Below are positions 1-237 of a stretch of 237 nt of DNA, in pieces; position 1 is the stretch's first letter; each line of letters opens with the position of its first letter. This DNA is from Escherichia coli (GTDB lineage: Bacteria; Pseudomonadota; Gammaproteobacteria; Enterobacterales; Enterobacteriaceae). The notes under the pieces are model-generated. The model was not told the DNA's origin. It worked only from the letters and a program-made list of their open reading frames with translations, and did not search any database. The stretch lies in the NCBI RefSeq assembly GCF_003334335.1, contig NZ_QOWQ01000232.1, one strand, 5' to 3'. The position numbers and the translations under genes are program-made.

Positions 1-237
1 GTTTGAATGGAAAGGGCTGAAGAAATTATGCGTGGCAGTCTCCTTTCGGTCCATAATAGCAGAACAAAAGAAAGAGCCAGAAATGACGGTCAGATATTAT
101 ATCAGTTCTGCTGATTTAACCGCTGAGAAATTCGCCACAGCGATCCGAAATCACTGGCACGTGGAGAATAAGCTGCACTGGCGTCTGGACGTGGTAATGA
201 ATGAAGACGACTGCAAAATAAGAAGAGGAAATGCAGC
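1..237 (+). CDS. ISAs1-family (H-repeat-associated) DDE transposase, internal/C-terminal fragment; partial at both window edges
   Basis: Seen in sequence: the frame with codon phase starting at base 2 is open for 78 codons to the window end, while + frames 1 and 3 hit TGA at bases 4-6 and 18-20. The translation is [78 protein letters not shown]. Established knowledge, recalled rather than searched: the segment [30 protein letters not shown] matches the conserved C-terminal region of ISAs1-family H-repeat transposases known from Escherichia coli and relatives. No start or stop codon is in the window, so the true gene boundaries lie outside it. Confidence 0.85.
1..237 (+). mobile_element. Interior of an ISAs1-family insertion sequence (H-repeat element); element ends and inverted repeats not in window
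   Basis: Inference from the transposase CDS: ISAs1-family elements are about 1.2-1.4 kb and consist mostly of this one transposase gene, so a window inside the gene is inside the element. No terminal inverted repeats or target-site duplications are visible here, so whether the element is complete cannot be judged. Confidence 0.7.

What the first reader, a model, noticed from the sequence alone, without database searches (positions are those of the whole stretch)
1..237. Window is entirely inside an ISAs1-family (H-repeat) transposase gene, with no novel system visible
The only coherent signal is one open frame whose translation carries the recognisable H-repeat transposase sequence. All other frames on both strands are interrupted by stops. 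This is a known, widespread insertion sequence family, so I cannot support a claim of novelty from this window.
Basis: partly seen in the sequence, partly recalled or inferred. Interest (0 to 1): 0.25.

Follow-up and report, generated by a model that had tools for sequence, protein, structure and literature searches.

The report
Fragment of ISEc1 (H-repeat) transposase gene
The window is an internal piece of the transposase gene of ISEc1 (the "H-repeat"), a long-known ISAs1-family insertion sequence found in almost every E. coli genome, so it is ordinary.

Summary
Only frame +2 is open across all 237 bases. Its 78-aa translation is residues 252-329 of the 378-aa E. coli K-12 protein YhhI, at 100% nucleotide identity. 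The 78 aa alone score 93 bits against NCBIfam NF033564 (ISAs1 family transposase; curated cutoff 70) and hit Pfam DDE_Tnp_1. The same DNA occurs in 5,234 of 5,426 complete E. coli genomes, with a median of 3 copies.

The element is 1,291 bp with CAGGG...CCCTG inverted ends. Three independent insertions carry perfect 10-bp target duplications, so it has really transposed.

The window cannot say which copy it comes from, or whether that copy is intact. An identical stretch lies in a pseudogene copy with a stop at codon 18. No RNA family, unusual fold, terminator or defence-system match was found. It is already known and of low interest.

The parts
2..235 (+). Partial coding sequence that runs off both ends of the window. 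It covers codons 252-329 of the 378-codon ISEc1 (H-repeat) ISAs1-family transposase gene (yhhI in E. coli K-12).
   Evidence: It is the only open frame and is identical to YhhI 252-329. NF033564 scores 93 bits against a cutoff of 70, and DDE_Tnp_1 gives 2.3e-6. In this frame omega is 0.15 against the Serratia copy and synonymous sites are saturated against Salmonella, while the two other frames give omega of about 1.0.
23..55 (+). Codes for beta-strand residues 259-269. I interpret this as part of the beta-strand insertion domain between the second D and the E of the catalytic triad.
   Evidence: DSSP on the AlphaFold2 model, pLDDT 94.5. The fold is most similar to Tn5 transposase. Assignment to the insertion domain is inferred from its position in the Tn5-like fold.
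80..106 (+). Codes for beta-strand residues 278-286, including the semi-conserved RYYISS segment with S287 at least 90% conserved.
   Evidence: Secondary structure; conservation.
122..196 (+). Codes for the long alpha-helix, residues 292-316, which carries the family signature R300-x-H302-W303-x-V-E306-N-x-L-H310-W311-x-L-D314.
   Evidence: Helix. H302, W303, E306, H310 and D314 are invariant, and R300, W311 and L313 are at least 90% conserved, in 100 family members 35-54% identical to YhhI.
164..166 (+). GAG codon for E306, the inferred third catalytic residue of the DDE triad (D109 and D172 lie upstream of the window).
   Evidence: E306 is 100/100 conserved, and D109 and D172 are each 99/100. 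It lies on the long helix after the insertion domain, as the catalytic E does in Tn5-type transposases. The catalytic role is inferred, not tested.
152..189 (+). Imperfect 14-nt direct repeat (CACTGGCACGTGGA at 152-165, CACTGGCGTCTGGA at 176-189) that encodes the two HW-x-x-acidic motifs (HWHVE and HWRLD), 8 residues apart on the catalytic helix.
   Evidence: Repeat; conservation of both HW pairs and both acidic residues.

Best explanation
The window is an internal 237-bp piece (element positions 897-1133 of 1,291) of ISEc1, the E. coli 'H-repeat', an insertion sequence of the ISAs1 family. It encodes residues 252-329 of the single 378-aa transposase. These residues form the end of the beta-strand insertion domain and the long helix that carries invariant E306. 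E306 together with D109 and D172 forms the inferred DDE metal-binding triad of an RNase-H-like catalytic core, in a Tn5-like fold. The inferred mechanism is as follows. The N-terminal DDE_Tnp_1_assoc domain and the core recognise the roughly 11-bp terminal inverted repeats (CAGGGMAAGAT). The DDE site cleaves the ends and joins them to staggered positions 10 bp apart in the target, which produces 10-bp target-site duplications. Shown here: the identity, the reading frame, purifying selection, the conserved residues, the fold, the element ends and the 10-bp duplications. Inferred: that E306, D109 and D172 are catalytic, and that the chemistry is cut-and-paste as in Tn5. Which genomic copy the window comes from, and whether that copy is intact, cannot be decided from 237 bases.
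Against: Nothing contradicts the identification. There are limits on the mechanism. Transposition of the E. coli H-repeat is reported as never observed experimentally (PMC3032704). No ISAs1-family structure is solved. The K-12 yhhI copy has no flanking target duplication. An identical window occurs in a copy inactivated by a stop at codon 18, so the source copy may be dead.
Confidence: 0.97

Rival explanations
1. The window comes from a decayed, non-functional ISEc1 copy (a pseudogene) rather than an intact transposase gene. The annotation would be the same, but no active protein would be made.
For: The copy beside yafV in E. coli E2865 is 100% identical across the window yet has a TAA stop at codon 18 and is annotated as a pseudogene. 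Many truncated or partial ISAs1 proteins appear among close homologs. Six of the 30 listed 100%-identical hits carry the generic, non-yhhI annotation at the E2865-type position.
Against: Twenty-four of the 30 listed 100%-identical records annotate an intact yhhI. The window itself has no stop or frameshift.
Confidence: 0.25
2. The H-repeat transposase is domesticated. In this reading it is kept by E. coli for a host function at Rhs loci or O-antigen clusters, for example promoting rearrangement of toxin tips or polysaccharide genes, rather than acting as a selfish IS.
For: It is nearly universal in E. coli and almost always chromosomal. It recurs beside Rhs toxin genes in K-12, E2865 and Salmonella L003, and inside polysaccharide gene clusters in L004-L006. 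There is strong purifying selection. Transposition has not been observed in the laboratory (PMC3032704).
Against: Intact terminal inverted repeats and perfect 10-bp target duplications at three unrelated sites, including a nested insertion into another IS, show ordinary transposition. Copy number varies from 1 to 9 per genome. Pseudogene copies are common. Low omega is also expected for an IS that spreads only when its transposase works.
Confidence: 0.03
3. The window hides a second, non-protein function, such as an antisense RNA, an internal promoter or a structured RNA, overlapping the transposase frame.
For: There is one weak sigma-70-like site on the minus strand at 53..25, matching 9 of 12 positions, against 0.2 sites expected in shuffles.
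Against: There is no Rfam match at E<=1. Folding z-scores are -0.18 on the plus strand and -0.97 on the minus strand, so neither differs from shuffles. There is no terminator and no inverted repeat. Third-codon positions are free to vary, to the point of synonymous saturation against Salmonella, which argues against an overlapping nucleotide-level constraint.
Confidence: 0.02

Closest known systems
ISEc1 / H-repeat (H-rpt) of E. coli K-12: yhhI at the RhsB element, with paralogs such as ydcC and ybfD
   Same: Nucleotide identity over the whole window is 100%, in the same reading frame. The containing element in K-12 is 1,291 bp with CAGGG...CCCTG ends and lies downstream of rhsB-yhhH.
   Different: Nothing differs in the window. 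The window's own genomic location is unknown, because an identical stretch is also found at a different locus beside yafV in E2865-type strains.
ISAs1 family of insertion sequences (prototype ISAs1 of Aeromonas salmonicida; also IS1548 of Streptococcus agalactiae, 1,316 bp, PMC7096684; ISPmar4 of Paracoccus, captured in trap plasmids, PMC3281130)
   Same: It passes the NCBIfam equivalog model for the family. It has the two-domain transposase architecture, a single ORF filling an element of about 1.3 kb, terminal inverted repeats and 10-bp target duplications.
   Different: Other members have been caught transposing, but the E. coli H-repeat reportedly has not (PMC3032704). Only sequence footprints of past transposition were found here.
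Tn5 / IS50 transposase (IS4 family), PDB 1mm8, 1muh, 4dm0
   Different: Sequence identity is only 9-11%, and neither phmmer nor a profile search detects a PDB relative. The IS4 Y-(2)-R-(3)-E-(6)-K signature is not present around E306: I299, H302 and L313 occupy the Y, R and K positions (read from the sequence). The target duplication is 10 bp here, whereas Tn5 makes 9 bp (my own knowledge).

Membership tests
ISAs1 family transposase (NCBIfam NF033564, equivalog) | Score at or above the curated whole-protein cutoff of 70 bits | tested here: met
   The 78-aa window translation alone scores 93 bits, E 1.9e-26, over profile positions 227-299 of 314.
ISAs1 family transposase | Two-domain architecture: N-terminal DDE_Tnp_1_assoc (PF13808) followed by DDE_Tnp_1 (PF01609) | tested here: met
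   In the full-length K-12 gene that contains the identical window, PF13808 covers residues 8-94 (1.9e-33) and PF01609 covers 102-343 (1.7e-29). The window itself covers only the C-terminal part of PF01609. The precomputed Pfam domains of close homologs agree.
ISAs1 family transposase | Conserved acidic DDE triad | tested here: met
   D109 is 99/100, D172 is 99/100 and E306 is 100/100 conserved in an alignment of members 35-54% identical to YhhI. Only E306 lies in the window (nt 164-166). The catalytic role itself is not testable with these tools.
ISAs1 family insertion sequence (ISfinder definition as I recall it: about 1.2-1.5 kb, one ORF, terminal inverted repeats, 8-10 bp target duplication) | Element size and a single ORF filling the element | tested here: met
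   The element is 1,291 bp in K-12, 1,290 in E2865, 1,292 in Salmonella L004 and 1,290 in Serratia L006, each with one 377-378-codon ORF. Not testable for the window's own unknown source.
ISAs1 family insertion sequence | Terminal inverted repeats | tested here: met
   The ends are CAGGGAAAGAT and CAGGGCAAGAT (10 of 11 match) in K-12 and E2865, and match 11 of 11 in the Salmonella and Serratia copies.
ISAs1 family insertion sequence | Short direct target-site duplication at insertions | tested here: met
   Perfect 10-bp duplications are GCGTTAAACA (E2865), CGGTGCCTGC (Salmonella L004) and GTTTTACAGA (Serratia L006). The K-12 yhhI copy has none.
ISAs1 family insertion sequence | Demonstrated transposition activity | not testable with these tools
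   The literature held here says H-rpt transposition has not been observed (PMC3032704). Other family members have been captured in trap plasmids (PMC3281130).
ISEc1 / H-repeat specifically | Near-identity to the K-12 H-repeat genes | tested here: met
   Nucleotide identity to yhhI is 100% over 237 of 237 bases.
ISEc1 / H-repeat specifically | Linkage to an Rhs element | tested here: inconclusive
   This holds for the K-12 (rhsB-yhhH-yhhI) and E2865 copies that carry the identical window, but the window's own flanks are not available.
IS4 family (Tn5/IS50, IS10) | RNase-H-like DDE core with a beta-strand insertion domain | tested here: met
IS4 family (Tn5/IS50, IS10) | Y-(2)-R-(3)-E-(6)-K signature around the catalytic E | tested here: not met
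   Around E306 the sequence is I299-R-N-H302-W-H-V-E306-N-K-L-H-W-R-L313. The Y, R and K positions are I, H and L. It therefore works like a Tn5-type transposase but is not an IS4-family member. The signature definition is from established knowledge.

The most novel reading that the evidence does not exclude
The most novel reading the evidence does not exclude is that the H-repeat transposase, which is nearly universal in E. coli and lies repeatedly next to Rhs toxin loci and polysaccharide/O-antigen clusters, is partly domesticated and promotes rearrangement or exchange of those variable loci rather than merely parasitising them.
Probability: 0.03. Interest if true: 0.4.

Novelty: already known. 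Interest (0 to 1): 0.04.

Why it matters
It matters little. This is a routine annotation of a well-known insertion sequence that standard pipelines already label correctly in thousands of genomes. Its practical value is negative: the window can be removed from any list of candidate novel systems. Two by-products are modestly useful. The 10-bp target duplications and the nested insertion show that this IS group really has transposed, even though laboratory transposition of the H-repeat has not been reported. The Tn5-like fold with a non-YREK catalytic helix describes a family that has no solved structure.

Tried and rejected
- Rfam scan of the window at E<=1 found nothing.
- RNA folding of both strands gave z-scores of -0.18 and -0.97, no better than shuffles.
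- The promoter/terminator scan found one weak antisense promoter-like site and no terminator, which is not evidence of function.
- The internal repeat search found only a 14-nt imperfect direct repeat that simply encodes the two HW-x-x-acidic motifs.
- PADLOC defence models gave no hit.
- PDB sequence searches with the single protein and with the 100-sequence profile gave no significant hit. The E=1 match of the 'TIDAMGCQ' segment to the Rhs-type toxin YenC2 is at chance level and I rejected it as coincidence.
- An inverted-repeat search around K-12 yhhI did not report the true terminal repeats, because they are too short. I found them by comparing two insertions.
- A literature search for 'ISAs1' plus 'H-repeat' returned no papers. 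Searches for a published table of ISAs1 family features found none in the held library, so the family definition used in the membership test is from my own recollection of ISfinder and is marked as such.
- Plasmid and phage searches showed that the element is rare on plasmids (23 of 72,556 records, several of them Mb-sized and probably mislabelled chromosomes). It is essentially absent from phages, where the one hit is a 1.5-kb unannotated record.

Full report
**Observation**

The 237-base window has one frame, +2 (nt 2-235), that is open from end to end. Each of the other five frames has at least two stops. This alone is weak evidence, because about 10% of mononucleotide shuffles of the window also have a fully open frame (509 of 5,000). 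The content of the frame settles the matter.

**Identity**

The 78-aa translation ([10 protein letters not shown]...KIRRGNA) scores 93 bits (E 1.9e-26) against NCBIfam NF033564, 'ISAs1 family transposase', an equivalog model whose curated cutoff is 70 bits. The match covers residues 2-78. Pfam DDE_Tnp_1 matches at E 2.3e-6 over model positions 139-185 of 200.

At the DNA level the window matches 5,234 of 5,426 complete E. coli genomes, at 17,113 places. The median is 3 places per genome and the range is 1-9. All but 13 places are chromosomal. In 1,853 records the best place is at least 99% identical, and the feature under the match is annotated 'ISAs1-like element ISEc1 family transposase' (gene yhhI) or 'ISAs1 family transposase'.

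In E. coli K-12 the window is L001 6001-6237, inside the yhhI CDS (5249-6385). This gene lies downstream of rhsB, yhhH and a truncated 'lyase' pseudogene, and upstream of yhhJ. The translation is exactly YhhI residues 252-329 of 378. This is the classical Rhs-linked 'H-repeat' (H-rpt), which a genome paper in the held library notes is listed as an IS in ISfinder (PMC3032704).

**The source copy cannot be identified**

An identical 237-base stretch lies at a different locus in strain E2865, between a degraded Rhs/T6SS region and yafV. That copy has a TAA stop at codon 18 and is annotated as a pseudogene. The window therefore cannot say which locus it comes from or whether its gene is intact.

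**Coding and selection**

I fetched diverged copies from Salmonella (87% aa identity) and Serratia (77%).

| Comparison | Region / frame | Result |
|---|---|---|
| K-12 vs Salmonella | whole gene, frame +2 | omega = 0.041 |
| K-12 vs Salmonella | window, frame +2 | 35 of 57 differences at third codon positions; synonymous sites saturated; dN = 0.12 |
| K-12 vs Serratia | window, frame +2 | omega = 0.149 |
| Both | window, two shifted frames | omega = 1.0-1.1 |

Frame +2 is a real protein-coding frame that has been under purifying selection. The freedom at third positions argues against any overlapping nucleotide-level function.

**What the window encodes**

- Full-length YhhI has the ISAs1 two-domain layout: DDE_Tnp_1_assoc at residues 8-94 and DDE_Tnp_1 at 102-343.
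- The family is very large, with 29,902 50%-cluster representatives at E<=1e-3 and 2,325 at E<=1e-30.
- In an alignment of YhhI with 99 full-length members only 35-54% identical to it, the invariant residues inside the window are H302, W303, E306, H310 and D314.
- R300, W311, L313, E319, D320, W254 and S287 are at least 90% conserved. Upstream of the window, D109 and D172 are each 99% conserved.
- An AlphaFold2 model built on that alignment is confident, with pLDDT 94.5 and pTM 0.91.
- In the model the window corresponds to strands 259-269 and 278-286 and to the long helix 292-316, which bears E306.
- Sequence-only searches of the PDB find nothing significant, so no ISAs1-family structure has been solved.
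- I infer that D109, D172 and E306 form the DDE triad, and that the window carries its third member (codon GAG at nt 164-166) in the signature R-x-H-W-x-V-E-N-x-L-H-W-x-L-D.
- The IS4-family Y-(2)-R-(3)-E-(6)-K motif is not present at these positions, where I299, H302 and L313 sit. The protein therefore resembles Tn5 in fold but is not an IS4-family member.

**The element and evidence that it moves**

Aligning the K-12 and E2865 insertions, which have unrelated flanks, bounds the shared element at L001 5105-6395. That is 1,291 bp, with ends CAGGGAAAGAT... and ...ATCTTGCCCTG that match at 10 of 11 positions as an inverted repeat. The window is element positions 897-1133.

In E2865 the element is flanked by a perfect 10-bp direct repeat, GCGTTAAACA. 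It is nested inside a second ISAs1-family element that is about 67% identical, runs from L002 3904 to 6505 and has its own CAGGG...CCCTG ends.

The Salmonella copy L004 is 1,292 bp and the Serratia copy L006 is 1,290 bp. Both have 11-of-11 matching inverted ends and perfect 10-bp duplications, CGGTGCCTGC and GTTTTACAGA. A chance 10-bp match exactly at both boundaries has a probability of about 1e-6 per insertion.

So this IS group has transposed with a 10-bp staggered target cut, although laboratory transposition of the H-repeat is reported as unobserved (PMC3032704). The K-12 yhhI copy has no flanking duplication.

**Mechanism**

- Shown: the identity, the frame, the selection, the conserved acidic residues, the Tn5-like fold, the inverted ends and the 10-bp duplications.
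- Inferred: the transposase binds the terminal repeats, its DDE site cleaves the ends and transfers them to target positions staggered by 10 bp, and the chemistry is cut-and-paste as in Tn5. Whether a hairpin intermediate is used is unknown.

**Rivals**

- The window may come from a pseudogene copy. I put this at about 0.25, and it cannot be resolved without flanks.
- A domesticated host role is suggested only by ubiquity and by recurrent placement beside Rhs toxins and polysaccharide clusters. The target duplications, the nested insertion, the variable copy number and the frequent pseudogenes argue against it (about 0.03).
- A hidden RNA or antisense function has no support (about 0.02). There is no Rfam match, folding is no better than shuffles, and there is only one weak antisense promoter-like site.
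- PADLOC has no match.
- The element is rare on plasmids and essentially absent from phages.

**Verdict**

The window is an internal fragment of the ISEc1/H-repeat ISAs1-family transposase gene. It is already known, correctly labelled by standard annotation, and of low interest.

Noticed in passing
L002 3904-6505 (E. coli E2865, NZ_AP018808.1): This is a nested insertion. The ISEc1 copy (5106-6395) sits inside a second ISAs1-family element that is about 67% identical (ends CAGGGCAAGATCATG at 3904 and CTCTTGCCCTG at 6505). It is flanked by a perfect 10-bp target duplication, GCGTTAAACA. Both transposase genes are pseudogenes.
   Followed up: yes
L004 1356-2647 and L006 1355-2644: The Salmonella and Serratia relatives (87% and 77% aa identity) have 11-of-11 matching CAGGG terminal repeats and perfect 10-bp target duplications (CGGTGCCTGC and GTTTTACAGA). 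In L003 and L005 no CCCTG right end was found in the expected range, so those copies may be truncated or degenerate at the right end.
   Followed up: partly
L001 5105-6395 versus L002 5106-6395: The 28 mismatches and 1 indel between the K-12 and E2865 copies are concentrated in the first 300 nt of the element. Counts per 100-nt bin are 3, 7, 11, 3, 2, 1, 0, 1, 1, 0, 0, 0, 0. The pattern is mosaic and suggests recombination or gene conversion between H-repeat copies. The window lies in the identical part.
   Followed up: partly
L003-L006; L001 63-5108; L002 698-3838: Relatives of this transposase recur next to Rhs toxin genes (K-12 rhsB; the E2865 RHS core protein; the Salmonella L003 PAAR-RHS-HNH toxin) and inside polysaccharide/O-antigen-type gene clusters (L004 beside a UDP-glucose dehydrogenase; L005 and L006 in Serratia between sugar-nucleotide and export genes).
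   Followed up: no
L001 4758-5108 and 5095-5104 / 6396-6405: The K-12 yhhI element has no flanking target duplication. Its left end abuts a 'lyase' pseudogene that lacks its C-terminus, which would fit an old insertion followed by adjacent deletion or recombination.
   Followed up: partly
window 152-189: A 14-nt imperfect direct repeat encodes two HW-x-x-acidic motifs (H302 W303 ... E306, and H310 W311 ... D314), 8 residues apart on the catalytic helix. All six residues are invariant or nearly so across the family. D314 is as conserved as E306, and its role is unknown.
   Followed up: partly
window 53..25, minus strand: A single weak sigma-70-like site (TGGACC, 17-nt spacer, CATAAT; 9 of 12 positions match) lies antisense to the transposase frame. 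There is no other support for an antisense transcript.
   Followed up: no
YhhI residues about 171-217 (outside the window): The family profile gave a chance-level (E=1) match of the 'TIDAMGCQ...' segment to the RHS-repeat toxin YenC2 (PDB 4igl, 9c4k). I treated it as coincidence despite the genomic Rhs linkage.
   Followed up: no
one search hits P0008, P0090, P0098, P0072: Some database proteins fuse H-repeat transposase sequence to other domains (PF05954, PF05593 RHS_repeat, PF20148) or are named 'receptor' in Shigella sonnei. These are probably gene-calling run-throughs at Rhs/IS junctions.
   Followed up: no
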